From contig DATKXU010000082.1 of assembly GCA_035528905.1 (NCBI GenBank), positions 57,838 to 121,837 of the forward strand: a stretch of DNA of 64,000 nt, written 5' to 3'. How positions within the stretch are numbered: position 1 is the first letter of the stretch; each line of letters begins with the position of its first letter. Of the stretch, positions 30,458-57,955 are shown piece after piece. Source of the stretch: Armatimonadota bacterium. GTDB lineage: Bacteria; Armatimonadota; UBA5829; DTJY01. The position numbers and the translations under genes were made by a program. Under the pieces are notes generated by a model. The model saw only the letters and a program-made list of their open reading frames with translations, searched no databases and was not told the origin of the DNA.

Positions 30458-31525
30458 ATGCGACGCAAGGCCGCTACAAAGCCGGACGAGGCGAGCACCA
30501 CCGCCACAGCCCCCATCGAACCGGGAGGTGTGTTCATAAGCCACGTCCACGAGGACGAGCCTCTTGCCGAGGCTTTTGAATTACTTATCCACAACGTAAG
30601 CGCTGGTGTAGTCCCCACTTTCAGATCAACCGCAAAACAGTTTGGTGGGGGAATCCAATACGGCGAGGAATGGTTCCGCTGGATATGTGAAAGCGTAAAC
30701 AAGGCAAAGCACATTGTAGCTCTGCTGACTCCGGCAAGCGTAAGTCGTCCGTGGATTCTATTCGAAGCCGGCCTGGGAAAAGGAAAGTCTGATGGTGTGG
30801 TTTTTGGTGTCGGACTTGGAATTTCCCGCGAAGATGCCTATAAGGGGCCTTTTGCTGCGCTTCAAAACTGCGGCGCAGAAGAAAAAGAACTGGTAAAGCT
30901 GTGCAAGGAATTAATCGAGGGAACTCAGGCAAAACCACGTGACGAGATGATCAGCAAATGTGTTGCGGAATTTCGCGCTACGGTCGAGGCGCATTTCGCG
31001 AACCAGAAATCAGGAAAGAAGGCAAGCGAAGATCCGACCAGCGTTGCGGTCTTTCAAGCGTTGGAAGAAATGAAGCTCATGCTCCGGGATCAAACCCGAA
31101 TGTTTGAAACGGATATGCCAAGGTTTCCCAGGCGAGACCGCGACATTGAGCGCCTTACTATGGTTGTCTTTGAACACTCCGGATTGCTCGAATCTGAACC
31201 AAAACTGCACTTAGCTTTCCTCGCAGGGCTCGCTACTGAACTAGGATACTTCTTCGTAAAGCCGCTTGTCGATTACATAGTAAATTCAAAACAAGCCATC
31301 CCAGGGGAACGTCTTGATGGAATGCACTTCTTGCTGCATGATATGTTTATGCGCCTGGAACCCCGCGGCAAGATGGATCACCATTTGCTTAGAACCATTG
31401 AGCAGGCGCTTCATACACGCCTCGACCAAAGGCTCAGCTCTAAAAACACCGGTTCGCCAGGGAAGTTCACCCCCTCAACTGCCTTAAGGTCAAGGGTTGC
31501 GAAGGCCCGGAGCGACAATCCGTAA
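30458..31525 (+). CDS. TIR-domain protein (bacterial TIR NADase-like) with uncharacterised C-terminal ~200-aa helical domain
   Basis: [16 protein letters not shown] matches the bacterial TIR (D/V)FISHAxEDK box; [12 protein letters not shown] and [10 protein letters not shown] match the WxxxE catalytic-Glu region; RBS AGGAGGGG upstream; gene GC ~50% against ~63% flanking. Confidence 0.8.
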
Positions 31526-32262: not shown

Positions 32263-33050
32263 ACTTAGGGCAGCCCTCAAAGTCCCGAATCATCCGCATT
32301 CTGCCCTAGCAGAATCAATTGTTCCAGCCGTTCCACCAGGCTGCGGATCGGGCGGCCTGCGGTATCGGGCCGGCTGGAAAGCTGCCGATACCTCTCCACT
32401 ATCTCCCGACGAACCTCCTGCGGCAAGATCGGGACTAGTATTGACTTTATCCGGTCGAAGTTGATTCCACACGGGCCGACGCCGCATTTCTCGCGGTGGA
32501 TCTGAAGGCGGGCGAACCGCGTTTGCAGGTAGACCGCCAGGTACTCCGGCTCTACATCTCTGACACGCACGAGATTGATGTGCTGGCTGATATTGCACGG
32601 CTCGTCCGAGTAGAAGACCGCCGCCCGGCCGATGCACCCTACCCCACTGTTTGCCAGAAGCAGGTCGCCCTTTTGTAGTCGGCTCCGCGCCGGATCATTA
32701 CGAGAGCCTGGTGGCACAAACCGTTCGGGTGAACGGATATCCACCCCGATCACGAAGCCCTCGCCGGTTGTGACGAGGTTCGCAGGTGTCAGCAGCCGGA
32801 CGCCGGATTCCGCCAACTCCCGTTTCCCCACCTGGCCGTAAGTCGTGTACTCGATCAATTCGCCCAAAGTGACCGCGTTCGGCAGGCCCCTCAGGAGGCG
32901 GAGGTTTTCGGTGTATTTACGGTGATAGTAGGCAGGATCCAATCTGTCGCCTGGGGACAAGATTTCCGCCGGAAAGACCACCCACGGCAGGCATTCGATT
33001 TCGGACTTGTCCGCCGGAGCCTTGGCATAGGAGGATTTGGGATTTCGGGT

Positions 33051-33178
33051 TGCGGATTGACCTACCCCCCTTCCTGCCTCCCCCCGAAGCGGAGGGAGGA
33101 GCACCTTCTCCCCTCTCCGCATCGGAGAGGGGCCGGGGGTGAGGTTTGGCTCGTCGGCTGCCGACCACTGTGCAAAAT
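33051..33178. repeat. Dispersed ~100-130-bp repeat, copy 1, inside the methyltransferase reading frame
   Basis: ~96% identical over ~95 bp to 47251-47355 (gcggagggaggagcaccttctcccctctccgcatcggagag...gaggtttggct.gtcggctgccgacca.tgtgcaaaat). Contains palindrome GTCGGCTGCCGAC and an imperfect hairpin; copy 1 has a 26-bp C-rich insertion. Confidence 0.75.
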
Positions 33179-33641
33179 CGGCGAACTGCTCGGCCAGGCG
33201 CTCAATTCCAGCCTGCCAGGAGGCACGAGATTCGAGTGCGGCGCTGAATACACGGCCCGGAAGCGCAGGATTCCTCTGGAAAACCAATACACTGGCCTTC
33301 GAAGCCGCGCCGGTGCGGTAAAACGTGTGCCGGGGAAGGCTGACAATCGCCCTGATCGCCGCGCGGCTCGAGAGCCATTCACGCACGTAGGAAAGCCGTG
33401 CGTTCGCCAGGATTCCGTCAGGCACAACCATCGCGACGTATCCGCCCGGCCTCGCAAGCTGCCAGAAGCGCTCCAGAAAGAGCACCTCGATCCGATACTT
33501 GGCGAGATCGGCGGCGTGTTGTCCATCCCGCCATATCGTGAAGTTTTCCCTGATGGCGCGAGCGAGCTGCTCGAAGTCCGGCGACGATCTCAGGCTCAAT
33601 GTGCCGAATGGAGGATTGCCGACGACCCAGTCGAAAGGAGT

Positions 33642-33684
33642 ATGGGGGTATGGGAGTGTGGGTGGATGGGAGTGTGGGTGGATG
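33642..33684. repeat. Tandem 16-bp duplication (ATGGGAGTGTGGGTGG x2, partial third) adjacent to a G5 tract, inside the methyltransferase
   Basis: Read directly: tatgggggtatgggagtgtgggtggatgggagtgtgggtggatg. On the coding strand it encodes the His/Pro/Thr-rich linker HTPIHPHSHTP. Confidence 0.8.
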
Positions 33685-34016
33685 TAGTTCTGTCCACATC
33701 TCCCAGTACGCATAAGCCGTCGCCGATGAAAAGGTTCGCGCGGCCCAGCAAGCCGTTTTCTTTCCAGGCTGCCGCCATCCGATTGTCTTTCTCGATGCCG
33801 AAAAGCCGATCTGGAGAAGTAATGCCGTGCTCCAGGGCATAGGCCAGAAAAGCACCTTCGCCGCACGCAGGGTCAATAATGCGCGGACACCGGGCATTGG
33901 AATCGAGGGCTCGGAGCATACGGTAGCACAGTTCGACTACCGGCTCGGGGGTGAAGTACTGGCCGAGCATCCTGGCGCGATCCATGCCCTGATATAGCAC
34001 AGAAACCCGCGCGTGG

Positions 34017-43793: not shown

Positions 43794-44780
43794 CTACCTT
43801 GGCAGGCATTTCCTCCGCCGCATGACACAGGTTCCAGCCAAGGAAATCAGCCCTGTGGCAAAGCAGATCAGCGAGCACGGCTCCGGCACAGGCACGATGG
43901 TAGATATGACGCCGACTGCATTGCCGCCGTCCGTCGCTCCGCCCACCAGCATCGAAAAGCTGTTGTCCGATGGGTTGCAGCGCAGAGTAGTGAGCGTGCA
44001 CTCGCTGGACGCGAAGGCAGTGGCCGCAGTGGATCCGTTCAGCAGGCGATACAGGACCCCACCGCTCGTGAAGAACACGTTTCCAAGGGCATCCATCTCC
44101 ATGTCGGCTGGCGGATTGACGCTGGCGAGCACCTGGCCATCAGCCTGCGTCAGTGAGCCGCTGCCGATGGCTCCCGCCACCTCGGCTTCGTCGAATCTCA
44201 GAATCGAGTCTCCACCAGCCGCGTATGCCGTCTCGTACAGCAAGTTATCCTGCGCATCAAATGCCAGCGGGCCGGAATACCCGCTCAGACCGGTTACAAC
44301 CTCATCACCAGCACCGTCGAAGAAGAACAATTTCTGCCCGGCCCAACCAGGATTGGCTGAAACAAATGCCTGTCCGAGCGAATTGAACTCAAGGTCGTAG
44401 TTGTTACCCAGCGTTCCCATCATTGCCGGATTGCTGCCATCCAGCCCCATGCTCCAGATGGCACCATTGGAGCTCTCTCCGAAGTAGATCGTGCTGTCTC
44501 GGACTTTGACAAACGAGCCATAAACCGAGTCTTTGAAGGAGTACAGAGGGGCGCCGACCACTCCAGCCTTCGTTACCTCGACAACATCCTGGCCGATGAA
44601 CGCGACAAAGTTGCCGCTGGGAAGCCTGTCGAAACCATACACGGACCAGGCATATGGGATCGGAAACACCGTATCCTGGACTGTATAGCCCACAGGTGCA
44701 TCAACATAGGCAGCATGAGCCTGCCCGACCATGAGCAGCAGGGCGGCACATGCGAGAAGCAACCGACATTTTGTATTCAT
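43794..44780 (-). CDS. PEP-CTERM sorting-domain protein, beta-propeller-like
   Basis: Signal peptide (LLLACAALLLMVGQAHA); C-terminal VPVPEPCSLICFATGLISLAGTCVMRRRK matches the PEP motif, TM helix and Arg cluster. Confidence 0.75.
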   Translation of the reverse strand: MNTKCRLLLACAALLLMVGQAHAAYVDAPVGYTVQDTVFPIPYAWSVYGFDRLPSGNFVAFIGQDVVEVTKAGVVGAPLYSFKDSVYGSFVKVRDSTIYFGESSNGAIWSMGLDGSNPAMMGTLGNNYDLEFNSLGQAFVSANPGWAGQKLFFFDGAGDEVVTGLSGYSGPLAFDAQDNLLYETAYAAGGDSILRFDEAEVAGAIGSGSLTQADGQVLASVNPPADMEMDALGNVFFTSGGVLYRLLNGSTAATAFASSECTLTTLRCNPSDNSFSMLVGGATDGGNAVGVISTIVPVPEPCSLICFATGLISLAGTCVMRRRKCLPR

Positions 44781-44874
44781 AGGAATCTCCTTTCCAAAAG
44801 AGACATAATCCAGTCGAGCTTGTGTCCAGCGCAGAGAATCAAGACGGATGAGACTATCTCCTCACAGTCACCTC

Positions 44875-46407
44875 CTATTCCGGCACAACAATCACGTCGG
44901 CCTGCTTCCTTACTCGCACAACCGGGGTCAAGTCAGGCTGTCTGTCGCCGACCCCCGTGACTACAACGTACTCGCCTTCGCCCGGCGGCGTTAGCCCGTC
45001 ACACCGCACCTTCAGCCCCGGATCGGGAAGGGAGCCATCGTTCACGTAGAAGCATGCGGAGCCGACGGCCTTGACGCGCCCACAAGTCGTCACAAGCAGG
45101 CCGATATTGCTCAGCCCGGCGCCGCCGACTCTATCCGCCGGCATGCCGAGCACCTTCGGGGGGTCGCCCGACGACACAAAGTACACGGAAGCCTTGTCGA
45201 GGAACCGCTCGCCATTGAGCGTGCTCAGAATGCCTATGACATCCACGCGATCGCCTTCCGCTGCCGAATCGCTCGTCTTCACGCGGATTCCGGACGAGCG
45301 CTGTTCCTCCTGGACGTACAACTCCCCATCGAAAACGGCGCTGACCACTTTCTGAGAGAGCGAGATCACGCTCCCATCAGGTTGGCTCTTCGCAGGCCCG
45401 ATGCTCTGACCGCCCGGCAGGGGCGACACGTCCGACACCGCATCAATCTCCGCCGAAATCTCGCCAAGCTCGCCCGCCGAATCTCCCGCGAGGGCATCCG
45501 TGATCCGTATGAAGTCGAAATACGGAATTTGGGCATACACATATGGAGCCACCGGCACACCGGGCGAAGTCTGCTTCACCGCGGCCGCTATGTCGAAAGC
45601 ATCTCCGCCGCCCGAACCTTCATCAATCAATAGGCTCTGTGGATCGCCCGCGTAGCTCTGGCGATCCGGCACTGTGTAAAACTCCTCGGGCGTTTTCCCC
45701 GGCGGCAATCCAAGGGTCGGCGTGTACTCGGCATAGTGCCGGAGCACAGTGCGCGAGTCGCCGGTATCGCAATTCGGGGCCGGGGAGCCGACCAGCTCTG
45801 ACGGGAGCTTGTTCGGCAGCACCAGGAACCACTCGTCGTCCGGGAGGCCGTTTCCGTTCGCGTCCATGCTGATCTCGACGAAGGCGGGCTCCTGCCAGCG
45901 ATGCCCGGGGTCGCCGCTTACCCAGGTCGGGTTGCCGAATACGATGAAATCCAGGCCGTGCGGGTTCCTTGGATCGTCCCAGACCGGCCGATTGAAGTCG
46001 AGCGTGATCCAGCCGTGATCGCCCAGCGTGACGAGGGAGCTGTTATCCGGGGCGGTTGCCGAAATCCCGTATGGCCGCCCGAGCGCCCGCTCACGATCGT
46101 TGAATCGCGAGTCATTAACCCACTGCCCCGGCCCTGGCTCATACTCGATCACGCAGTCGGCGAACGGCCACGCGCCAGCCCATGCGTTAACCGCCAAGAC
46201 GCCAAGCAGACAAAGGAAGAGAGACTGCAGACGGCAGATCCGCCTCAGGCGGAACTGCAGATGATGAGTGACGAGTGAGGAGTGATGAGTGATGGGAGAT
46301 GGTATTCCTCCCCCCTCTCCCTTGCTCCCGCTCTTCCATTGTGCGCCCGGACCCCTGGATCCCTGGACCCCTGGACCCCTGATTCCCTTAGTCCTTCGAC
46401 TCCACAC
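44875..46407 (-). CDS. Hypothetical membrane-anchored/secreted protein with Gly/Pro/His-rich N-terminal tail
   Basis: ATG at 46407; hydrophobic anchor LQSLFLCLLGVLAVNAWA after a low-complexity tail encoded by micro-repeats; no recognisable domain. Confidence 0.45.
   Translation of the reverse strand: MWSRRTKGIRGPGVQGSRGPGAQWKSGSKGEGGGIPSPITHHSSLVTHHLQFRLRRICRLQSLFLCLLGVLAVNAWAGAWPFADCVIEYEPGPGQWVNDSRFNDRERALGRPYGISATAPDNSSLVTLGDHGWITLDFNRPVWDDPRNPHGLDFIVFGNPTWVSGDPGHRWQEPAFVEISMDANGNGLPDDEWFLVLPNKLPSELVGSPAPNCDTGDSRTVLRHYAEYTPTLGLPPGKTPEEFYTVPDRQSYAGDPQSLLIDEGSGGGDAFDIAAAVKQTSPGVPVAPYVYAQIPYFDFIRITDALAGDSAGELGEISAEIDAVSDVSPLPGGQSIGPAKSQPDGSVISLSQKVVSAVFDGELYVQEEQRSSGIRVKTSDSAAEGDRVDVIGILSTLNGERFLDKASVYFVSSGDPPKVLGMPADRVGGAGLSNIGLLVTTCGRVKAVGSACFYVNDGSLPDPGLKVRCDGLTPPGEGEYVVVTGVGDRQPDLTPVVRVRKQADVIVVPE
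46349..46388. repeat. Five tandem 8-bp repeats GGAyCCCT, and an adjacent GAGTGATGAGTGATGGGAG block (46262-46302), at the 5' end of the 44875..46407 gene
   Basis: Read directly; encode GPGVQGSRGPGAQ and HHSSLVTHH in the N-terminal tail. Confidence 0.7.
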
Positions 46408-46414
46408 TCTCTCA

Positions 46415-47224
46415 TCACCTCAGGTCAAAGAGTTCATTACTGTCCGGGCCGAACCAGCCGATCCTGAACCGCTCATTATCGCCGCCGTACGCACTCCGCG
46501 CAGTGAAGGTCATCTCCTCCGACGTCACATGCCCGTCACACCAGGCGACCAGCGTCCTTTCGTTGTGTCGGAAGTGAATTGACGGCGTATAGCGATAAGA
46601 AGTGGGCTGGCCGTCCGGACCGAGGATATACGGAGGCTCGCAGAACGAGTACTCGGTAACGTGCTGCTGCGGATAGTCCTGCGCGATGGCGGTGTCTGTG
46701 AACATCACCGTCCGGCTCGGATTTCGCACATGGCACACGCGGGCTGCCACGGTGCTGGAGCGCATATCGCTCCAGCCGTACTTCCAGTAGCTTCCGCCTA
46801 TGTAGTCATCGTTGTACCCGTAACCGCCGCATCCAGCCTCGAACGCATTGGGCGAGTAGGAATCCGAGGCATCCATCGCCGGACATATCTTCAGGCCACT
46901 GGATCTGCCCAGGTACTGCCAGAGCGGACCTTTCTCCGGGTCGAACGCCGCACTAGGCGACGGACGCCAGCCGTGCCAGCGCCAGTGACCTCCGCCGGAT
47001 GCGAAGATATCGCACGCGGCAGGGACAAACCGCCCATCGTAGTCCTGGGAATACATCTGGTTTGCCATCGCGAGCTGCCTCAGGTTCGAAGCGCATTTCG
47101 CTTTGTAGCCAGCCCGCCTCGCAGACGCGAGAACCGGGAACAGTATCGAGGCCAGAACTCCAATTATCCCAATGACCACCAGGAGCTCGATGAGGGTGAA
47201 GCCGATTGTGGATTGCGGACGCAT
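46415..47224 (-). CDS. Prepilin-type N-terminal cleavage/methylation domain protein with DUF1559 (H-X9-DG) domain
   Basis: GFTLIELLVVIGIIGVLASILFPV N-terminus; C-terminal HFRHNERTLVAWCDGHV H-X9-DG motif. Start set at MRPQSTIGF (47224); the upstream in-frame extension is the dispersed repeat. Confidence 0.85.
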   Translation of the reverse strand: MRPQSTIGFTLIELLVVIGIIGVLASILFPVLASARRAGYKAKCASNLRQLAMANQMYSQDYDGRFVPAACDIFASGGGHWRWHGWRPSPSAAFDPEKGPLWQYLGRSSGLKICPAMDASDSYSPNAFEAGCGGYGYNDDYIGGSYWKYGWSDMRSSTVAARVCHVRNPSRTVMFTDTAIAQDYPQQHVTEYSFCEPPYILGPDGQPTSYRYTPSIHFRHNERTLVAWCDGHVTSEEMTFTARSAYGGDNERFRIGWFGPDSNELFDLR

Positions 47225-47250
47225 CCTCCGTAGCTTTAGCGAAGGAGGAG

Positions 47251-47355
47251 TGCGGATTGCCCAAAGCGGAGGGAGGAGCACCTTCTCCCCTCTCCGCATC
47301 GGAGAGAAGCCGGGGCTGAGGTTTGGCTGGTCGGCTGCCGACCAGTGTGCAAAAT
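47251..47355. repeat. Dispersed ~100-bp repeat, copy 2 (5' leader of the DUF1559 gene)
   Basis: ~96% identical to 33051-33178 minus that copy's 26-bp insertion; immediately followed by a terminator-like hairpin. Confidence 0.75.
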
Positions 47356-47359
47356 GAAA

Positions 47360-47405
47360 CCGGGCTCTCGTCTGAGCCCGGAAGCTTTTTTCGACGAGAG
47401 CCCGG
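47360..47405. terminator. Bidirectional terminator-like nested hairpin (CCGGGCTC/GAGCCCGG followed by TTTTTT on the plus strand; 13-bp outer IR ccgggctctcgtc/gacgagagcccgg)
   Basis: Inner stem 47360-47367 / 47374-47381 then aagctttttt; outer 13-bp perfect inverted repeat 47360-47372 / 47393-47405. Confidence 0.5.
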
Positions 47406-47766
47406 CATAAGTTACCGATAGCGCGCTTCGCCATCTTTGCCTCCGAAGACGGTCCGATGCTGCGAAGCAGGCAGGTCTTCTGACTTCCGGATCAGCCGAT
47501 GTCCGGCTCCTTCCCAGAGCATCTTCGCCCCAAATCTGAGAGCTAGCTCCAGTGGTTTCTGCCGAACCCGTACCCGGTTACAGCGGCGGGCCCGTGACGG
47601 ACTTTCACCGTCTTCCCTCATCACCTCCCGACGCAATCCAGGGAGGCGCCTGCTCGCACGGATATTCAATTATCGAGAAGAGTCTACCACAGCGGAATTG
47701 GCCTGTCAAGCATCCTTGCAGACATTTTCAAGCAGCCGGGGAGCCAGCGCCGCTAGAATCCGTGCA

Positions 47767-50615: not shown

Positions 50616-50968
50616 AGAACGTAACGGAAAACCAACTGCCTGCGCACGACCATCTCCGCTGCTCCGACAGTCGCCTGGCGCGCTGCCTGATCGGAGGCAG
50701 GAATAGACTCTCCTCTGTACTCCCCGATGGCTTATCTTGCTTCCCGCCGCGTGTAACCAATCTCCCGCGAATGCCACGATCCCTACACAACAGCAAACCC
50801 TTTCCAGCCAACCCTACATTCCGCCCATCTGTAAAAATTACGGGAATTTTCCCCTAAACCGGCTCATTTGGCCCGGAACTTGCAACTACACCCGGTAGGT
50901 CAAGCGCTGTGCAAGCAAGTTTCAGAGCTGGCACGGCAATCCTGACCTGCGAAAGGGTGGTAGTTCTG

Positions 50969-51691
50969 ATGTTGTTACGTCGTCTTGTGATCCTATCCTT
51001 GTGCCTGCTGTTGCTGTCTGTCGCAGCGGCAGAGGCAGCAAAGGTGCGAATGCCACCAGGCTCGTTCCTGACGAAGCCCGTCGGCAGTCCGAGCGAGCTC
51101 GCCAATCTTGTTCAGACGGACAAGGTCGTTGCACAGCGGTTTTCGAAGCACTTTGGCATGGATCCCTCCTCTCTGGCCGAGTACTTCAGGGATAACCTGA
51201 AGTTGACCACGCTGGCCAAGTCGGGCCAATACAGAGTGTACTTCATTACGAAAGGCGGAAAAATCACCCTGCATAAGAAGAGGCTGAAGGCCGGTACGAA
51301 GATGTTCGTGGCGTGGAACGGCCAGTTGATCCTCGAGGGGAGATGCGGCAACCCGATGACTAAGACCCTGCCGCAGCGACCGAAAGTTTCAGTGGTTCCA
51401 GAGCCGCCTCCAACTACCCCGCTAGCTCCGACTGCTGTGGTGGAACCGGTACAGGTTGAAATTCCACCGCTGGCGCCTGAACCCGAGGTGGAAGTTCTGG
51501 CTGAGCCTCCGATCGAACTGGTGACAGCTCCGGCAGCGCGATGGCTTCTCCCCGCACTGCTGGGAGCGGGTGCGATCGGCGCACTGGGCGGAGGAGGCGG
51601 TGGCGAGCCGGTTCCCGAGCCTACAGGGCTGCTTGTGCTGAGCCTTGGCGGAGCGAGTCTGTTCTTTTACTCCTGCAAGCGGCGGCGCTGA
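50969..51691 (+). CDS. PEP-CTERM sorting-domain protein
   Basis: Signal peptide (LLRRLVILSLCLLLLSVAAA); Pro-rich linker; C-terminal PVPEPTGLLVLSLGGASLFFYSCKRRR. Start set at ATG 50969. Confidence 0.7.
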   Translation: MLLRRLVILSLCLLLLSVAAAEAAKVRMPPGSFLTKPVGSPSELANLVQTDKVVAQRFSKHFGMDPSSLAEYFRDNLKLTTLAKSGQYRVYFITKGGKITLHKKRLKAGTKMFVAWNGQLILEGRCGNPMTKTLPQRPKVSVVPEPPPTTPLAPTAVVEPVQVEIPPLAPEPEVEVLAEPPIELVTAPAARWLLPALLGAGAIGALGGGGGGEPVPEPTGLLVLSLGGASLFFYSCKRRR

Positions 51692-51760: not shown

Positions 51761-52435
51761 ATGAAGAAGTTGTTGGTTTACGCGAGAATTTATCTACTGG
51801 TTGGGCTGTTGCTTGCGCTGACCATTCCTGCCCAGGCAGTGTCCTGGAACGCGGCAATAACCCAGGGATTGACTTCCGTGGACGTTCTCTGGGATCCGCC
51901 GGCCAGTACGTATACGTGGACGCTGAATAACCTGAGCGGCACGCCCGATTGCCCGTACCCGGACGAGACTGTGCTGGTCTGGTCGCTTCAGCCGTTCAAC
52001 GTACGTGAGCCGGCTGCAACTACTCCGCCGCCGGGATGGACCTGGGATGATTCCTCCGGCGCATGGCAGTGCTACGAGATAGAAAACGAGCCCGACAAAT
52101 ACTACACACCGCCCGCCATCGAACCGGGTGGCTCGCTGACGTTTATCTACGTCTGCGACCCCAGCGGAAGCATGATCAATCCCTTCCCTCCGGATTACGA
52201 GGGCGACCCGATAAACGACATCGGCTTTATCTCACACGTAGCCGCTGTCGTCCCCAGGACGGAGCCGATAGACTACAACCTCCCCTGGGTTCCCGCTGAA
52301 TCCCAGTATGGAGACACTTGGTACGACCGTTCGGACTACACCACCACTGTCGTCCCTGAACCCGCCAGCGCAACAGCGCTGGGAGCCTTCGGGATACCGC
52401 TGGTCTTAGCCTTCCTCAGGCGCAGACGCAGTTAA
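51761..52435 (+). CDS. PEP-CTERM sorting-domain protein
   Basis: Signal peptide MKKLLVYARIYLLVGLLLALTIPAQA; C-terminal VPEPASATALGAFGIPLVLAFLRRRRS. Confidence 0.75.
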   Translation: MKKLLVYARIYLLVGLLLALTIPAQAVSWNAAITQGLTSVDVLWDPPASTYTWTLNNLSGTPDCPYPDETVLVWSLQPFNVREPAATTPPPGWTWDDSSGAWQCYEIENEPDKYYTPPAIEPGGSLTFIYVCDPSGSMINPFPPDYEGDPINDIGFISHVAAVVPRTEPIDYNLPWVPAESQYGDTWYDRSDYTTTVVPEPASATALGAFGIPLVLAFLRRRRS

Positions 52436-52657: not shown

Positions 52658-53839
52658 ATGTTCCGCACAAGATTATCAACAATTGCGCTTACGGCGTCCC
52701 TCATCATTTCCCTCGTCGTGCTGCAAGCTGCGGTCCCACTCCCTGTCCACAGCGACGAAGATGCGAGAAAGCATGAGATTGAGATGGGACGGGAGGCTGC
52801 AGCCGAGGTCGAGAAGGAAAACAAACTCGTAACCGACCCCCAGATGAACGAGCGAGTTAACACGATAGGCCAAAGGATTGCGGCTGTGGCGAACTCGGAG
52901 CCCGTGCCGGCGACCTATGGCAGGCCGGACGTCTACCGATTCGACTACAAGTTCAAGGTCATTGATGACAACAGCGTAAATGCCTTCTCGCTCCCTGGCG
53001 GCCTCGTCTACGTGCACACGGGTCTCCTGAACTACGTGCAGTCGGATCATGAGCTGGCAGGCGTACTTGCCCACGAGATCGCCCACGCATCTCACCATCA
53101 TGTAGCCCAACTGCTGAAGCAGCAGAGCAGACTTGACGCGCAGATGGCGTTTGTCCTGCTGGCAGGCGTGGTGACCGGGGTAGACACGGAGGATCTGGGC
53201 AACCTGCTGATCGGCGCGCAGCTCGTGAGAATTGCGAGAGGCAGTCGCTACGGCCAGAAGGCTGAGGCGGACGCAGACGCGACAGCCGTGATCTATGTCG
53301 AGAAAGCCGGCTACAACCCGGTGGGAACCCTCACTTTCCTGGAACGGCTCGCCAGCGACTACGCCAACGGGCCGAACCTGGACATGGGCATAATGCAAAC
53401 ACACCCGGCAACCCGCGCCCGCAGCAAGTCCGTCCTGGGTCAGATAAGGTCGCTGGGTCTCCCGGTCAACAGGCGTGCGGTCGCGGACGCGCTGAAGGCC
53501 AAGACCGAGCAGGTTACCGTGGAAGGCCAACCGATCACCCAGGTGAAGCTGGGGGACAACGTGCTGTTTGAGCCGGCGCCGATAGACGATGCGGTCACTT
53601 CCGAACAGCGGGCGGAGGCCATCGCGACGAAGGTCAACCAGCTTTTGGATTCCGAGCCTCTGCTGCGGGAAGTAGCTCTCAGCTCAGACGGGCGAACGGT
53701 GCTCGCCCGCGGCGAGCCGATCATAGTGGTGACGGCCCAGGACAGCAGCCTTTACCAAAAGCCTGTCAGCGAGGTGGCAGCACAAGCCGCGGCCGTATTG
53801 AAGCATGCGATCTGGCAGGAAATGATACACAGACTGTAG
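52658..53839 (+). CDS. Secreted M48-family zinc metallopeptidase
   Basis: Signal peptide; HEIAHASHHH (HExxH) plus downstream Glu of the M48/HtpX-BepA-like fold. Confidence 0.85.
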   Translation: MFRTRLSTIALTASLIISLVVLQAAVPLPVHSDEDARKHEIEMGREAAAEVEKENKLVTDPQMNERVNTIGQRIAAVANSEPVPATYGRPDVYRFDYKFKVIDDNSVNAFSLPGGLVYVHTGLLNYVQSDHELAGVLAHEIAHASHHHVAQLLKQQSRLDAQMAFVLLAGVVTGVDTEDLGNLLIGAQLVRIARGSRYGQKAEADADATAVIYVEKAGYNPVGTLTFLERLASDYANGPNLDMGIMQTHPATRARSKSVLGQIRSLGLPVNRRAVADALKAKTEQVTVEGQPITQVKLGDNVLFEPAPIDDAVTSEQRAEAIATKVNQLLDSEPLLREVALSSDGRTVLARGEPIIVVTAQDSSLYQKPVSEVAAQAAAVLKHAIWQEMIHRL

Positions 53840-53999: not shown

Positions 54000-54035
54000 T
54001 CCACATTGACAACCCATCTATTGGAGGAATCAGAC

Positions 54036-54437
54036 ATGGCCGAGTTTGTAAATCCGTTTTCCGGTGCAGTGCCACGCAAGATGACGCAGAGCGAGCTGGC
54101 GCGGGCAATCCTGCTCGACATCGCCGCAGAGCTGGAGGCCGTCCATCTTTACCTGGCCCACATGGACGCCACAGACAATGAAGACGCGAAAAAGGTGCTG
54201 TATGACATAGCGCTCGAGGAGTACGTCCACGTTGGGGAGTTCACTAGCGTCCTATATCGGCTGGACCCAACCGCTGCGACGAAGGCACAGGAGGGCTTTG
54301 CGGAAGTGCAGGACTTGCTCGCCGGCCGCGCCCCGGCTGAGGTGACTACGACGACCGAGACTGCGTCCGTAGAGAAACCCCAAACACCGGCGCCCGAGGG
54401 CCTCACCGTCGGCAGCCTGATTGGAGCCGAGCAGTAG
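54036..54437 (+). CDS. Ferritin-like protein of the EncFtn type with putative C-terminal encapsulin cargo-loading peptide
   Basis: Two ExxH di-iron half-sites (AELEAVHLY, EEYVHVGEF) in the EncFtn pattern (compare EELEAVDWY...EEKEHAAM); flexible Ala/Thr/Pro linker; C-terminal EGLTVGSLIGAEQ resembles the targeting consensus (SLGIGSLK / LTVGSL). Start set at ATG 54036, preceded by GGAGGA. Confidence 0.55.
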   Translation: MAEFVNPFSGAVPRKMTQSELARAILLDIAAELEAVHLYLAHMDATDNEDAKKVLYDIALEEYVHVGEFTSVLYRLDPTAATKAQEGFAEVQDLLAGRAPAEVTTTTETASVEKPQTPAPEGLTVGSLIGAEQ

Positions 54438-54466
54438 CAAGAGGAGCAGCGGCCGGCTGCCAGCTG

Positions 54467-57400
54467 CTACTCCGCCTTCTCAACGGTAATCGCCATGACC
54501 TTGATGGCCGGATTATTCGGCAGAGACAGAGATGTCAGCTCGGCTTTGGAATCCACCGAGAGAACGTAGTGGTTCAGGTAGCACGCCTGGCCTCGTTGGT
54601 CCGCGTCCGGCGAATGCCGGTGCAGGCAGACGAAAGCAGGATGCTCCCCGTGCTTCGGCGCTTCGTTCCACGCGCTGAACTGAACCGTCGAAGCGGCCTT
54701 GCTCCCATTGTACGTCAAAGCAAACTCGCCGGTCGTGTCCTGCGTCGCCAGCGCCAGAACGTGGACAGCCGCATACCGGCCGGGCTTCAGCACGACCGAC
54801 TGGCCCTTGCAAGATACGGCGTTCTTCGCCCCGTCGGCCTTGGACGGGTACCTGAACGATATCCGCCTCGATGATTCCAGGCCTGCGCCCTGAGCGGATG
54901 TCCAGAGCCCGCACGGCCACAACTTGTCAGGAGCAGCAACCGCAGTTACCTGCGGAGGAATAAACTCCGCGGCAAGGCTGAGGCCGGCACCATCCGCATC
55001 TCCGTCCGCCCGGTTCGCATCGAAGCTGACCACATCCGAGTCGAACAGTTGCGTCAAGTCCTGCACCGCCAACTTGCCATTTGTGACTTTCACAGGCACG
55101 ACGAGGATATCGCCGCCGCGCGTATTCGCCGAGGTCGAGACCCATTTGTCTCCGTGGGCGAGATCCCACACCAGGTAGTACTGGCCGTCGTATGGGGGCG
55201 GCGTCACAGAGGCTTTCACGATAACCCGCTCGCCCGGACGCACATCCGTCGGCAGCCGCGTCTTTGCGCCATCCCAGATGGCTTCTATCCCATCCAGGTA
55301 GTACCAGTGGTATCCGACGCTGAATTCGGCCTTGGTCCAGACATCCGCTCCCGCGTTCTCGATGGTGAGGCTGACCTTGCACTGCCTGCCCGCCGGCATC
55401 TCTCCTGGGCTGTCGTTCGCGACAAACCTCGGGCCGTAGTCATCCGCGAGTACCTTCACTGCCTCCTGGCCGAAGCGCACCGGAACGCACTGGCCGTCCG
55501 CCTGAACCATTTCCCAGGAGAGGACATAGGTCCACAGATCGTTCTGTGTCCACACGGGAATCGGTGCGCCGTCCTGGCTTGCGACTTTCACAGGCACGGT
55601 TAACTCGATCGCCCGGCCAGGCTCCAAGTCCGCCGCCAAATCCGCAGTGCCTGCGCATCCCGGCAGGCTCTCAACCGAATCCTCGGAATCCTTGCTCAGG
55701 TGGACGGATGCCTTCCGCCAGCGATAGCCCAGCTTCAGGTCGCCCGCCTTCCAAGTGGCGGCGCCGTCGTTTCTGAGCTTCACACTGACATCGTACGCCC
55801 CACCGGACTTCACGAGCGTGGGCAGCGTCGAACCAACCAGGCTGAAGCCAACGGCGGGCGCCGTGCCTATCTTTACCGGCACACACAGGGGCACGTCTCC
55901 GCCGTTTGAGAACCACTCATCGCGCGAGCGGACAAGTTCCCATCGAAGCTCGTAGTCACCCTCAGGGAGGGGCTTGCCATCCTGGTCAGCAGATCGAATG
56001 CCAATCGTCTTTTCCAGCACATGCCCCGCGAGAACAGTCTCCTGAAGCGGCAGCCGTGCCCCAGAGTCGGCAAACAGAGTACCATCCTTGAACCACCGGC
56101 CGGCAAGGAATACGCCTTGCAGTCCGGGATACCATGGCCTTGTGCCAGCATTCTTAACTGCCAGCGTCACCTGATAAAGCGCCCCGGGCGGCATCACAGA
56201 TGGCGTATTGTGCTTGAGGAACTTCGCATCATACGCCCGCATGCCGTTGAAGCGGAGCATGTTGATCTTGGTCAGGCTGACGTACTGGTTGCCATACTCG
56301 CTGCTGGGACAGATGTCGCTTCCCTCGTGAAGCTCATTCCAGCCGTCCACGATCACCCAGTCGGGCGCCTTCTCAATCAGGGCATCCCAGTCTTTCTTGT
56401 ACGTATCCCCGCCCACTCTGGACCGCATCGGCGTCCCAAGCCGGACAGCCGAATCTTCGTATCCTGCTCCAACTCCGGCAATGCGTATCCAGCCGGTCTC
56501 ATCGAACTGCAAGCCCAATCCTGCTCCGTAGTTCGAGTATCCATCCATTACAGCCGCCTTGGGCCGGAAGTCCGAATGGCCGATCCAGATGAGCTTGCTC
56601 CCGTCGAAATCCTTCGCAAACCGCTCGCCGCAATACTCCACGAAGCCAGCGTCCAGATCGCTGAACCGCGAAGCCGTGTACAAGACCACAATATAGGCCG
56701 GCTGTCCGCCCCTCTCCAGGGGAAGTTGAACGGCCGCCCGGAACTCGTCCGGCACCTGGAGGAAGAAATCCTTGATCATGCCGTAAAAGGTCTCCTTGAC
56801 CTCGGCGTCCTTCAGGTCGGGCGTGCCCCCGTATTGAACCCACATGCCGCTTGTATCGTTGAACATTGCCACAAGAGGGTAGCTCTTGCCCTCGGCTTTC
56901 AACTCCTTCAAAGCCTGCACCATGCAATTCAGGCCCTTCGAGGCAAACTGTTTTTTGGTGGCGGCCGCTCCCCAGTATACGGGGATTACCACGTCTATTC
57001 CGGCGTTACTGATATTGGTAAGCTGGTCCTTATGCCACTGCATACGGTCGTGTGAGAACCAAGGGCCGACTCCTTCGAGAGGGTGGTCGGTGAGCTCGCT
57101 ATGTCCATCCATATCGCGCACGTGGCTGAACGGAGCTTCGCGGCGCTCGTCGGCCTGGTACCAGTAGAAGTAGTGGGTCAGCGCGAGCTTCTCGATCATC
57201 AATCTCTTCCCTGACACGACACCGGGCGGCTCAGGTTTGGTCACCTGGAAGCGCATATCCCGAATCCACTCACCCGGACCAAGGTTCCCATCAACAAGCG
57301 GCGCCCTGCGAGTGACCTTACGGCAGACGATAGCGCTGTCTTGCCGGGCGATTATAGTAGGAGTATCCACGAACTTTACAGTCCCCCACTTTGCGGGGAC

Positions 57401-57955
57401 GTGCACATCCTCCTCGCTTGCCGCCTCGGGCGAGAGGCTGACAAACCCCGTATTCTCACCTCTCATCCGGCAGATCACGTTGAAGCCCATGACCTGTCCC
57501 GGCGACGGCGGGCCGCCCATCTCCTTCCACGGCATGGCAAGCTCTACGATGTAGCCGATGTCCCGGTCATACGACCTGTTCACCGTGCCTTGGACTCTTC
57601 TGGCGCATTTGAAGGTGAAGATCTTCTTGGGCTTGGGCGATCCGTTCTCGCCGACTACGAAGCTGGAACCGCCTCCTGCACTGACTGACATTTGGAAAGT
57701 ACTCGGCGTGCGATTAGGCGCACGCTGGTTGTCCGTCTCCAGAAACACCTCAACGCAGTCATCTTCCCACGGGTTCGACATGTGGGTAGTGTTGGTGCTC
57801 ACCACGTCGGGATCCTGGACCTCGAATGCCGCGTAGAAAAAGGAGTCATCCCATATGGTGTAGCAAGTCACTTTGTCTGCGGCACGAGCAGGCAAGCAGA
57901 ACATGAGGGCAAGCAGGAGGAATAGACACGTGAATATGCGCAAATTCTGCATCAT
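54467..57955 (-). CDS. Large secreted multidomain glycan-active protein (N-terminal CBM9-like domain, GH99-like central domain, repeated Ig-like domains)
   Basis: Signal peptide; CBM9 signature (TIWDDSFFYAAFEVQDPDVV...WEDDCVEVFLETD); central DGWNELHEGSD resembles the GH99/GH71 NEWHEG motif; three ~100-aa repeats (..KNAGTRPW.., ..RNDGAATWK.., ..ENAGADVWT..). Confidence 0.55.
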   Translation of the reverse strand: MMQNLRIFTCLFLLLALMFCLPARAADKVTCYTIWDDSFFYAAFEVQDPDVVSTNTTHMSNPWEDDCVEVFLETDNQRAPNRTPSTFQMSVSAGGGSSFVVGENGSPKPKKIFTFKCARRVQGTVNRSYDRDIGYIVELAMPWKEMGGPPSPGQVMGFNVICRMRGENTGFVSLSPEAASEEDVHVPAKWGTVKFVDTPTIIARQDSAIVCRKVTRRAPLVDGNLGPGEWIRDMRFQVTKPEPPGVVSGKRLMIEKLALTHYFYWYQADERREAPFSHVRDMDGHSELTDHPLEGVGPWFSHDRMQWHKDQLTNISNAGIDVVIPVYWGAAATKKQFASKGLNCMVQALKELKAEGKSYPLVAMFNDTSGMWVQYGGTPDLKDAEVKETFYGMIKDFFLQVPDEFRAAVQLPLERGGQPAYIVVLYTASRFSDLDAGFVEYCGERFAKDFDGSKLIWIGHSDFRPKAAVMDGYSNYGAGLGLQFDETGWIRIAGVGAGYEDSAVRLGTPMRSRVGGDTYKKDWDALIEKAPDWVIVDGWNELHEGSDICPSSEYGNQYVSLTKINMLRFNGMRAYDAKFLKHNTPSVMPPGALYQVTLAVKNAGTRPWYPGLQGVFLAGRWFKDGTLFADSGARLPLQETVLAGHVLEKTIGIRSADQDGKPLPEGDYELRWELVRSRDEWFSNGGDVPLCVPVKIGTAPAVGFSLVGSTLPTLVKSGGAYDVSVKLRNDGAATWKAGDLKLGYRWRKASVHLSKDSEDSVESLPGCAGTADLAADLEPGRAIELTVPVKVASQDGAPIPVWTQNDLWTYVLSWEMVQADGQCVPVRFGQEAVKVLADDYGPRFVANDSPGEMPAGRQCKVSLTIENAGADVWTKAEFSVGYHWYYLDGIEAIWDGAKTRLPTDVRPGERVIVKASVTPPPYDGQYYLVWDLAHGDKWVSTSANTRGGDILVVPVKVTNGKLAVQDLTQLFDSDVVSFDANRADGDADGAGLSLAAEFIPPQVTAVAAPDKLWPCGLWTSAQGAGLESSRRISFRYPSKADGAKNAVSCKGQSVVLKPGRYAAVHVLALATQDTTGEFALTYNGSKAASTVQFSAWNEAPKHGEHPAFVCLHRHSPDADQRGQACYLNHYVLSVDSKAELTSLSLPNNPAIKVMAITVEKAE

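What the first reader, a model, noticed from the sequence alone, without database searches (positions are those of the whole stretch)
54036..54437. EncFtn-like mini-ferritin with apparent C-terminal encapsulin targeting peptide, but no encapsulin shell gene in the window
The protein has the EncFtn-style pair of ExxH motifs, a long disordered Ala/Thr/Pro linker, and ends in ...EGLTVGSLIGAEQ. That closely resembles family 1 encapsulin cargo-loading peptides (GSL-containing, e.g. LTVGSLR / SLGIGSLK). In known systems the HK97-fold shell gene is immediately downstream. Here the downstream gene is a convergent 1162-aa glycan-active protein and the upstream gene is an M48 peptidase. Either the shell is encoded elsewhere (a split cargo/shell operon) or this is a shell-less relative that retained the tag.
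Basis: partly seen in the sequence, partly recalled or inferred. Interest (0 to 1): 0.6.

Follow-up and report, generated by a model that had tools for sequence, protein, structure and literature searches.

The report
Encapsulin ferritin cargo gene without shell
This gene encodes a small iron-oxidising protein with a conserved address tag for loading into a bacterial protein nanocompartment, and throughout this bacterial group (Armatimonadota) it sits apart from the compartment's shell gene, as its best-studied relative also does.

Summary
Window 54036-54437 (+) encodes a 133-aa protein that passes NCBIfam's EncB-family cutoff. Its closest solved relative is M. xanthus EncC. The predicted fold matches encapsulated ferritins, and E32/E62/H65 are invariant. 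After a disordered linker it ends in ...GLTVGSLIGAEQ, matching the shell-binding peptide LTVGSLR resolved on EncB/C/D. The tag is not a chance match: among 100 homologues, pairwise identity is 0.90 in the tag, 0.20 in the linker and 0.78 in the domain.

No family 1 shell gene is in the window, the ~9 kb upstream of it, or beside any Armatimonadota-type homologue (0 of 21 loci with room downstream). More distant tagged relatives have the shell directly downstream (7 of 7). Tagless relatives never do (0 of 26).

This is an EncC-type cargo gene unlinked from its shell, as encC (MXAN_4464) is from encA (MXAN_3556).

I could not find the shell elsewhere in this genome, because no tool could search a chosen genome. 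That step is inferred from tag conservation.

Verdict: new member of a known kind, modest interest.

The parts
54036..54437 (+). Gene for a 133-aa EncC-type encapsulin ferritin-like cargo protein (coordinates include the stop codon)
   Evidence: ORF and sequence. The identical 133-aa product is called on 9 public contigs. NCBIfam NF058679 EncB_fam scores 111.8 bits against a cutoff of 90. PDB 7s8t EncC matches at 2.6e-25.
54023..54027 (+). Shine-Dalgarno-like GGAGG, 8 nt upstream of the ATG
   Evidence: Read directly from the sequence. It supports ATG 54036 as the start rather than the upstream TTG 54006.
54036..54326 (+). Ferritin-like (EncFtn) domain, residues 1-97: an extended N-terminal NPFxGxVPRKMT segment followed by three helices (18-44, 49-76, 78-97)
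   Evidence: AlphaFold2 pLDDT is 88-97 over residues 11-100. Foldseek top hits are P. furiosus EncFtn, M. xanthus EncC (50-52% identity), then R. rubrum and H. ochraceum EncFtn and EncB.
54129..54131 (+). Codon for Glu32, predicted ferroxidase-centre ligand (helix 1)
   Evidence: Invariant in 30 homologues. It aligns with the conserved Glu of EncC, EncB and P. furiosus EncFtn. The ligand role is inferred by homology.
54219..54230 (+). Codons for Glu62-Tyr-Val-His65, the canonical ExxH ferroxidase-centre motif (helix 2)
   Evidence: E62 and H65 are invariant. They align with EEREH of EncC, EEKAH of P. furiosus and EEKEH of EncB.
54135..54146 (+). Codons for Glu34-Ala-Val-His37, a second ExxH that is specific to this clade
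   Evidence: Invariant in the Armatimonadota-type clade. EncC has D..N, and P. furiosus and EncB have D/E..N at these positions. Function unknown.
54327..54401 (+). Disordered Ala/Thr/Pro/Glu-rich linker (residues 98-122)
   Evidence: pLDDT is below 50 from residue 103. Linker length is 21-44 aa among homologues, and mean pairwise identity is 0.20.
54402..54419 (+). Targeting peptide core Leu-Thr-Val-Gly-Ser-Leu (residues 123-128), followed by IGAEQ
   Evidence: It aligns with the C-terminal LTVGSL of EncC. LTVGSLR is the peptide resolved bound to EncA (PMC11126975). It is present in 103 of 120 homologues with mean pairwise identity 0.90.
52658..53839 (+). Context only: upstream M48 peptidase gene, a recurrent neighbour in this clade
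   Evidence: PF01435. It lies near the cargo gene in 8 of 27 Armatimonadota-type loci. No functional link has been shown.
54467..57955 (-). Context only: convergent 1162-aa CBM9/DUF5010 protein gene, the most conserved neighbour; its stop lies 29 nt from the cargo stop
   Evidence: PF06452 and PF16402. Present in 12 of 27 Armatimonadota-type loci. It is not a shell.

Best explanation
The gene encodes an EncC-type encapsulated ferritin-like protein.

Shown: family membership, the fold, invariant E32/E62/H65, a disordered linker and a conserved C-terminal LTVGSL peptide.

Inferred by homology with EncC/EncB and other EncFtn proteins: two-helix subunits pair to build di-iron ferroxidase centres at dimer interfaces and assemble into a decamer. 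The decamer oxidises Fe2+. It cannot store iron itself, so it works inside a family 1 encapsulin shell. It is tethered there by the LTVGSL peptide docking into the luminal pocket of the shell protein.

Inferred from conservation, not shown: the shell gene exists elsewhere in this genome. In the Armatimonadota clade the cargo gene has become unlinked from the shell gene, as encC is in M. xanthus. It now sits in a conserved housekeeping/envelope neighbourhood (M48 peptidase, convergent CBM9 giant protein).
For: Identity:
- NF058679 scores 111.8 bits against a cutoff of 90.
- EncC 7s8t matches at 2.6e-25 over residues 5-128, tag included, and at 8.4e-30 with the family profile.
- The fold hits are all encapsulated ferritins.
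- E32, E62 and H65 are invariant.

The tag is functional:
- 103 of 120 homologues carry [LF]T[VI]Gx[LM].
- Mean pairwise identity is 0.90 in the tag, 0.20 in the adjacent linker and 0.78 in the domain.
- The peptide matches LTVGSLR, resolved by cryo-EM in the EncA pocket (PMC11126975).

The tag predicts a shell elsewhere in the family:
- In cargo-first loci from other phyla, 7 of 7 tagged homologues with at least 900 nt downstream have a family 1 shell gene within about 50 nt. An eighth has a partial shell at a contig end.
- 0 of 26 tagless homologues have one.
- 4 of 4 shells looked up from that subclade have the cargo gene directly upstream.

Unlinking is clade-wide:
- 0 of 21 Armatimonadota-type loci with room downstream have a shell, and 0 of 10 with at least 8 kb on both sides.
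- About 348 kb of flanks were screened. These include two complete chromosomes, OY970325.1 and OY760504.1.

Precedent: encA is MXAN_3556, encB is MXAN_3557 and encC is MXAN_4464.
Against: No shell gene was found for this genome or for any Armatimonadota genome.

- The EncA search returned only Myxococcota.
- None of the 30 shell-cluster representatives I looked up by name was labelled Armatimonadota; about half had an organism name.
- A profile of the cargo-adjacent shells returned Planctomycetota-type operon shells.
- These searches list only the best 120-150 of 811-1368 hits, so this is weak negative evidence.
- The 2021 encapsulin census text and held supplements do not mention Armatimonadetes.
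- Tagless orthologues exist at the same syntenic slot, so the domain can evidently do something without the tag.
- Pfam EncFtn-like and TIGR04535 score below their cutoffs.
Confidence: 0.75

Rival explanations
1. Shell-less relic. The Armatimonadota lineage lost the encapsulin shell. The protein now acts as a free cytosolic ferroxidase or oxidative-stress protein, and the tag persists without a partner.
For: No shell was found beside any of 27 distinct Armatimonadota-type cargo genes. None appeared among the shell hits I could list. Tagless orthologues at the same locus show the domain is kept without the tag in some lineages. Free tagless relatives about 100 aa long are common in other phyla.
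Against: A partnerless 6-residue peptide after a linker evolving at 0.20 identity would not stay at 0.90 identity across a clade whose domains have diverged to about 69%. Where the tag has been lost, the whole linker and tag are gone. That is the expected outcome once selection is relaxed. From established knowledge of EncFtn, the decamer has no storage cavity and relies on the shell.
Confidence: 0.12
2. Repurposed tag. The conserved LTVGSL peptide binds a different partner in Armatimonadota: a very divergent HK97-type or other compartment, a membrane or envelope factor, or a protease adaptor.
For: The failure to find a canonical shell. A conserved but unexplained neighbourhood with an M48 peptidase and, in L007, ECF sigma/anti-sigma and Metal_resist genes. 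A clade-specific invariant E34/H37. Several tagless variants end in -AA, which hints at alternative C-terminal signals.
Against: The tag is the same peptide that binds family 1 shells in M. xanthus. It matches the tags of sister lineages that do have adjacent family 1 shells, e.g. GLTVGNLKS in L030 and TTVGSLL in L069. No conserved unknown protein of shell size accompanies the gene. No other shell family is in the window.
Confidence: 0.06
3. Chance resemblance. The protein is an ordinary rubrerythrin-like or ferritin-like protein whose C-terminus merely looks like a targeting peptide.
For: Pfam hits are all below threshold and include Mn_catalase, COQ7 and Rubrerythrin.
Against: The NCBIfam family-level hit is above its cutoff. 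The 50-52% identity match to EncC includes the tag. The tag is conserved in 103 of 120 homologues. The motif occurs only twice in 128,000 six-frame positions of the window.
Confidence: 0.01

Closest known systems
Myxococcus xanthus EncC (MXAN_4464; PDB 7s8t)
   Same: Best sequence and near-best structural match, at 50-52% identity. It has the same N-terminal NPFxxxVPRKMT segment, the same E/ExxH ferroxidase residues, a disordered linker and a C-terminal LTVGSL tag. Its gene is also encoded far from the shell gene encA, MXAN_3556.
   Different: The phylum differs (Armatimonadota versus Myxococcota). This clade has invariant E34/H37 where EncC has D/N. The residues after the tag are IGAEQ rather than Arg-Arg. 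The partner shell is unidentified. It is not known whether an operon-encoded EncB-like primary cargo exists.
Operon-encoded EncFtn-type cargo with a downstream family 1 shell (found here in Planctomycetes, Chloroflexi and Deltaproteobacteria loci L026-L030 and L066-L070; classically R. rubrum Rru_A0973 and H. ochraceum)
   Same: Same fold and ferroxidase residues. A C-terminal T[VI]G[SND][LM]-type tag. These are the sister lineages of this cargo, at 52-62% domain identity.
   Different: In those loci the shell gene follows within about 50 nt. Here and throughout the Armatimonadota-type clade it does not. R. rubrum and H. ochraceum proteins are much more distant in sequence (E = 0.03-0.19 even with the profile), and their tag is SLGIGSLK.
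Pyrococcus furiosus EncFtn-shell fusion (PFC_05175; PDB 2e0z, 5n5e)
   Same: Second-best sequence match and best fold match for the ferritin-like domain. A similar natural fusion, P0351, appeared among the shell representatives.
   Different: There the domain is fused to the shell protein and needs no tag. Here it is a separate protein with a linker and tag, and its gene is unlinked from any shell gene.
Other cargo proteins encoded away from the shell: M. xanthus EncD, and M. tuberculosis BfrB (proposed)
   Same: These are tagged proteins encoded outside the shell operon (PMC11126975; PMC8346489).
   Different: They are unrelated folds with different functions (flavin ferric reductase; 24-mer bacterioferritin).
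Firmicute IMEF cargo (Q. thermotolerans)
   Same: The tag consensus G(S/T)F(L)TVGSLI(L) is very close to this protein's GLTVGSLIG.
   Different: IMEF is a four-helix-bundle protein lacking ExxH. NCBIfam TIGR04536 scores only 13 bits here.

Membership tests
EncB/EncC family of encapsulin ferritin-like cargo proteins (NCBIfam NF058679) | Sequence scores above the curated family cutoff | tested here: met
   111.8 bits against a cutoff of 90, covering residues 1-128 and profile positions 1-117 of 117.
EncB/EncC family of encapsulin ferritin-like cargo proteins (NCBIfam NF058679) | EncFtn two-helix ferritin-like fold | tested here: met
   The AlphaFold2 model has pLDDT ~97 over the helices. Foldseek top hits are 5n5e, 7s8t, 5da5, 5n5f and 7s5c, with probability 0.99-1.00.
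EncB/EncC family of encapsulin ferritin-like cargo proteins (NCBIfam NF058679) | Ferroxidase-centre residues: Glu on helix 1 plus ExxH on helix 2 | tested here: met
   E32, E62 and H65 are invariant in 30 homologues. They align with EncC, EncB and P. furiosus residues.
EncB/EncC family of encapsulin ferritin-like cargo proteins (NCBIfam NF058679) | C-terminal family 1 targeting peptide after a flexible linker | tested here: met
   GLTVGSLIG aligns with EncC's RLTVGSL. It is conserved in 103 of 120 homologues. The linker is predicted disordered.
EncB/EncC family of encapsulin ferritin-like cargo proteins (NCBIfam NF058679) | A family 1 (PF04454) shell protein encoded in the same genome | tested here: inconclusive
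   Absent from the 64-kb window, from about 9 kb further upstream, and from all Armatimonadota-type loci. The rest of the genome could not be searched. The database searches for an Armatimonadota shell were uninformative.
EncB/EncC family of encapsulin ferritin-like cargo proteins (NCBIfam NF058679) | Decamer assembly, ferroxidase activity and physical encapsulation | not testable with these tools
   This needs biochemistry or cryo-EM. It is inferred only from homology to EncC/EncB (PMC11126975; PMC12746231).
TIGR04535 'encapsulin-associated ferritin-like protein' (ferrit_encaps) | Sequence scores above the curated cutoff | tested here: not met
   70.1 bits against a cutoff of 125. It is related but not a member of this narrower subfamily.
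Pfam PF22277 EncFtn-like | Sequence scores above the gathering threshold | tested here: not met
   17.7 bits against a threshold of 27, matching residues 20-66 only. A few homologues carry a precomputed PF22277 hit. The fold nevertheless matches.
Canonical two-gene family 1 encapsulin operon (cargo gene immediately upstream of the shell gene) | Shell gene adjacent to the cargo gene | tested here: not met
   The downstream gene is a convergent CBM9/DUF5010 protein and the upstream gene is an M48 peptidase. 0 of 21 Armatimonadota-type loci have an adjacent shell, against 7 of 7 in sister lineages.

The most novel reading that the evidence does not exclude
The Armatimonadota clade has no family 1 encapsulin shell at all. 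Its strictly conserved LTVGSL peptide then tethers the ferritin-like decamer to a different, so far unrecognised partner, such as a highly divergent shell or an envelope/stress-response factor. That would be a case of a cargo-loading peptide being re-used outside encapsulins.
Probability: 0.07. Interest if true: 0.75.

Novelty: new member of a known kind. Interest (0 to 1): 0.3.

Why it matters
The find extends the M. xanthus EncC situation, a tagged ferritin-like cargo encoded away from its shell, to a whole clade of a poorly studied phylum. Neither the 2021 encapsulin census text nor any paper in the searched library mentions that phylum in this context.

Censuses that define cargo by adjacency to a shell gene will miss such genes. 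A tag-based search would recover them.

The clade also offers a natural experiment. Orthologues at the same chromosomal slot either keep or have lost the linker and tag. If tag presence tracks shell presence across genomes, that would be clean comparative evidence for how cargo-shell dependence evolves.

In itself the gene is an ordinary iron-handling or oxidative-stress component.

Tried and rejected
1. Shell in the window. tblastn with T. maritima and M. xanthus shells gave nothing. EncA-clade and combined HMMs with filters off gave nothing. Pfam on shell-sized and unknown ORFs gave nothing.

2. Database search with EncA for an Armatimonadota shell. The best 120 were all Myxococcota.

3. EncA-clade profile against the 50%-identity representatives. 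There were 1368 clusters. I looked up 30 representatives by name and found Chloroflexota, Bacillota, Aquificota, Clostridia, Phycisphaerae, Atribacteria or no name, and no Armatimonadota.

4. Hand-made degenerate DNA patterns for shell motifs. KDFxLxWRD occurs in only 45 of 150 representatives and FRVxExLxLRIKxP in only 16 of 105. Both are too variable. The trial scan on viral contigs gave one hit.

6. Profile of six cargo-adjacent shells (A4). The best 120 were Planctomycetota-type shells. None lay on the 5,366,867-bp or 3,780,622-bp Armatimonadota chromosomes. Four that I checked are classical operons.

7. Viral-contig scans for miscalled shells from the same metagenomes gave nothing.

8. 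Looking beyond the window ends. About 9 kb further upstream holds respiratory and glutamate-synthase genes and no shell. The downstream look-up returned only a short JGI contig.

9. Search for a conserved unknown neighbour that might be a cryptic shell. The only extra 'family' was alternative-frame ORFs over the GC-rich cargo gene.

10. Promoter/terminator scan. There is no plus-strand sigma-70-like promoter or terminator around the gene, which is uninformative for this phylum.

11. Literature search for Armatimonadota plus encapsulin, linocin or nanocompartment found no papers.

Full report
WHAT IS THERE

Window 54036-54437 (+) is a real gene. An ATG lies 8 nt after a GGAGG, the product is 133 aa, and the stop is TAG at 54435-54437. 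Exactly this product is called on nine public contigs up to 172 kb long, all with the same neighbours. One source labels it a hypothetical protein (VMX94_09030) of an Armatimonadota MAG. The mechanical ORF list starts at an upstream TTG, but all homologues start MPEF/MAEF at the ATG.

WHAT THE PROTEIN IS

- NCBIfam places it in the EncB-family encapsulin ferritin-like cargo proteins: NF058679, 111.8 bits against a cutoff of 90, full length.
- It falls below the cutoffs of the narrower TIGR04535 model and of Pfam EncFtn-like and Rubrerythrin.
- The closest solved protein is M. xanthus EncC (7s8t). The match is 2.6e-25 alone and 8.4e-30 with a family profile. It runs from the N-terminal NPFxxxVPRKMT segment to the C-terminal LTVGSL.
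- An AlphaFold2 model built on 30 homologues has three confident helices (18-44, 49-76, 78-97; pLDDT about 97) and a disordered tail from residue 103.
- Its best matches among solved structures are all encapsulated ferritins: the P. furiosus EncFtn domain, EncC at 50-52% identity, then R. rubrum and H. ochraceum EncFtn and EncB.
- E32, E62 and H65 are invariant in the family alignment. They align with the ferroxidase-centre Glu and ExxH of EncC, EncB and the P. furiosus protein.
Only the second is the canonical motif. The first is invariant within this clade, but the characterised proteins have D/E..N there.

IS THE TAG REAL?

The protein ends ...PAPEGLTVGSLIGAEQ. LTVGSLR is the peptide shared by EncB, EncC and EncD. 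Cryo-EM resolved it bound in the pocket between the N-helix and E-loop of the EncA shell protein (PMC11126975; tag table in PMC11202242).

- Among the 120 best homologues (59-100% identical), 103 carry [LF]T[VI]Gx[LM] near the C-terminus.
- The segment between the domain and the tag varies from 21 to 44 residues and cannot be aligned.
- Over 100 homologues, mean pairwise identity is 0.78 in the domain, 0.20 in the 12 linker residues before the tag, and 0.90 in the tag hexamer.
- The motif used to pick tags fixes T and G. Even so, the free positions are far narrower than the motif allows: L 97/F 6, V 102/I 1, L 99/M 4.
- In the window's whole six-frame translation a TP-like hexamer occurs twice, and only this ORF has it at a C-terminus.

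The tag is therefore under purifying selection, which implies a binding partner.

IS THERE A SHELL GENE NEARBY?

No. Three methods found nothing in the window:
- tblastn with the T. maritima and M. xanthus shell proteins. Both sequences were written from memory. I checked only the EncA sequence, which matched PDB 4pt2 over its full length at 643 bits. The T. maritima sequence was not checked against the PDB, though it did detect the real shells in other loci.
- HMMs of the EncA clade with HMMER filters off.
- Pfam on the shell-sized and unannotated ORFs.

The rest of the window is housekeeping: the dcw/mra cluster, acetyl-CoA carboxylase, an H+-pyrophosphatase, prolyl-tRNA synthetase and an ABC sugar transporter. 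There is also a small restriction-modification/TIR-like islet. About 9 kb further upstream on the 172-kb source contig also holds no shell.

THE FAMILY-WIDE PICTURE

I fetched cargo-homologue loci with up to 10 kb of flank from the species-representative genomes (35 loci) and from JGI metagenomes (36 loci). I added loci from exact-protein look-ups and screened all flanks with shell HMMs.

| Cargo group | Tag | Loci assessed | Shell gene found |
|---|---|---|---|
| Armatimonadota-type (domain identity ≥69% to ours), 27 distinct tagged sequences | LTVGSL-type | 21 with ≥900 nt downstream | 0 |
| same group | LTVGSL-type | 16 with ≥1.5 kb on both sides | 0 |
| same group | LTVGSL-type | 10 with ≥8 kb on both sides | 0 |
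| More distant relatives (52-62%) in Planctomycetes, Chloroflexi, a Deltaproteobacterium and unnamed metagenome contigs, cargo-first loci | T[VI]G[SND][LM]-type | 7 with room downstream | 7, starting within about 50 nt |
| Tagless ~100-aa relatives (Thermodesulfobacteriota, Dictyoglomota, Akkermansia and others) | none | 26 | 0 |

- About 348 kb of flanks were screened around the Armatimonadota-type genes. They include two complete chromosomes, OY970325.1 and OY760504.1.
- An eighth tagged distant relative shows a partial shell at a contig end.
- Four shells of that subclade, looked up independently, all have the cargo gene directly upstream.

Outside Armatimonadota, then, the tag predicted an adjacent shell in every assessable locus. 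Within Armatimonadota, the tagged gene has been relocated away from any shell gene. My own calculation from these counts (Fisher's exact test, 0/21 against 7/7) gives p of about 1e-6.

The recurrent neighbours in Armatimonadota are the convergent CBM9/DUF5010 giant protein (12 of 27 loci), an aminotransferase, an AsnC regulator and an M48 peptidase. None is shell-like, and no conserved unknown accompanies the gene.

IS THE SHELL ELSEWHERE IN THE GENOME?

I could not settle this, because no tool could search a chosen genome. The indirect routes were:
- An EncA query returned only Myxococcota.
- An EncA-clade profile against 50%-identity representatives found 1368 clusters.
- Of the 30 representatives I looked up by name, none was labelled Armatimonadota; about half had an organism name.
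- A profile of six cargo-adjacent shells returned Planctomycetota-type operon shells. None lay on contigs with the lengths of the two Armatimonadota chromosomes.
- Scans of viral contigs for miscalled shells found nothing.

Each protein search lists only its best 120-150 hits, so these negatives carry little weight. The 2021 census and the searchable literature do not mention Armatimonadota encapsulins.

MOST LIKELY MECHANISM

Shown: family membership, fold, metal ligands, disordered linker and a conserved tag.

Inferred by homology (PMC11126975; PMC12746231): subunits pair to form di-iron ferroxidase centres and assemble into a decamer that oxidises Fe2+. The decamer is tethered inside a family 1 shell by the LTVGSL peptide, and the shell lumen holds the ferric mineral.

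Inferred from selection on the tag, and from the tag-shell association in sister lineages: the shell is encoded elsewhere in this genome.

I put 0.75 on the whole chain and at least 0.95 on the identity of the protein.

RIVALS

- Relic tag without a shell (0.12). This is hard to square with 0.90 tag identity next to a linker at 0.20.
- Tag re-used for another partner (0.06).
- Chance resemblance (0.01). This is refuted by the evidence above.

COMPARISON WITH WHAT IS KNOWN

The closest system is M. xanthus, where encA is MXAN_3556, encB is MXAN_3557 and encC is MXAN_4464. The nearest characterised homologue is thus itself a cargo encoded far from its shell. EncD, and as proposed M. tuberculosis BfrB, are further examples.

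What is new is modest:
- It is a clade-wide unlinked arrangement in a phylum not covered by the census.
- The clade carries a specific invariant E34/H37.
- Some orthologues at exactly the same chromosomal slot have lost the linker and tag (P0113 in L094). That gives a direct comparative test of cargo-shell dependence.

VERDICT

This is a new member of a known kind, with interest 0.3.

Noticed in passing
L094 10001-10309 (protein P0113); also P0102, P0103, P0106, P0107, P0109, P0116, P0117, P0119, P0120: Some Armatimonadota-clade orthologues lack the linker and tag entirely. P0113 sits at the same syntenic slot (M48, cargo, convergent CBM9 giant, aminotransferase, AsnC). Eight of the 17 tagless hits end in -AA (e.g. 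KPVKAAA, QQAA, HKAA, DEAA), which resembles C-terminal degradation signals. I did not test this further.
   Followed up: partly
window 54135-54146 (residues E34-H37): E34 and H37 are invariant in this clade. EncC, EncB and the P. furiosus EncFtn domain have Asp/Glu and Asn at these positions. This could be an extra metal-binding or electron-transfer residue next to the ferroxidase centre.
   Followed up: partly
window 50909-51691 (+) and 51761-52435 (+): Two adjacent genes encode proteins with hydrophobic N-termini and PEP-CTERM-like tails (…VPEP…hydrophobic stretch…RRRR/RRRRS). The one tested (50909-51688) has no Pfam match, and public gene calls show none for either. They recur near the cargo gene in several related loci.
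   Followed up: partly
window 30458-31522 (+) and 32280-33866 (-): A protein with a sub-threshold TIR_2 match (26.2 bits against 28) sits next to a fused N6-methylase/Eco57I/specificity-domain protein. This is probably a small anti-phage defence islet.
   Followed up: no
window 43797-47434 (-): Three consecutive genes of 328, 510 and 339 aa. The first two have no Pfam match. The third has a prepilin-type N-terminal methylation motif. Function unknown. They are not conserved next to the cargo gene in other genomes.
   Followed up: no
L007 4151-9959 (chromosome OY970325.1): In this complete Armatimonadota genome the cargo gene follows six same-strand genes: an ECF sigma factor, a zf-HC2 anti-sigma protein, an STN-domain protein, an M48 peptidase, an unannotated 214-aa protein and a PF13801 Metal_resist protein. 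That suggests an envelope or metal-stress regulon. L010 also has zf-HC2/STN genes nearby.
   Followed up: no
protein P0048 (C-terminus): This homologue ends in CLLYTSPSPRD. By my own reading that is the translation of the Illumina Nextera adapter, so the contig end would be adapter-contaminated and the missing tag an artefact. I did not check this with a tool.
   Followed up: no
L022 (CAYZFJ010000220.1, 2993 bp): This contig is binned as 'uncultured Myxococcia' but carries an Armatimonadota-type cargo gene (77% domain identity, LTVGSL tag). It is probably a mis-binned short contig.
   Followed up: no
proteins P0351, P0243, P0255, P0285, P0302 (shell-family representatives): Several family 1 shell representatives carry N-terminal extensions. 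P0351 is a natural EncFtn-shell fusion whose N-terminal domain matches this cargo at 9e-16. P0243 has CxxCH haem-binding motifs. P0285 and P0302 have His-rich N-termini.
   Followed up: partly
window 54438-54466: Only 29 nt separate the stop of the cargo gene from the stop of the convergent 1162-aa gene. No terminator-like hairpin was predicted on the plus strand, so the converging transcripts may overlap.
   Followed up: no
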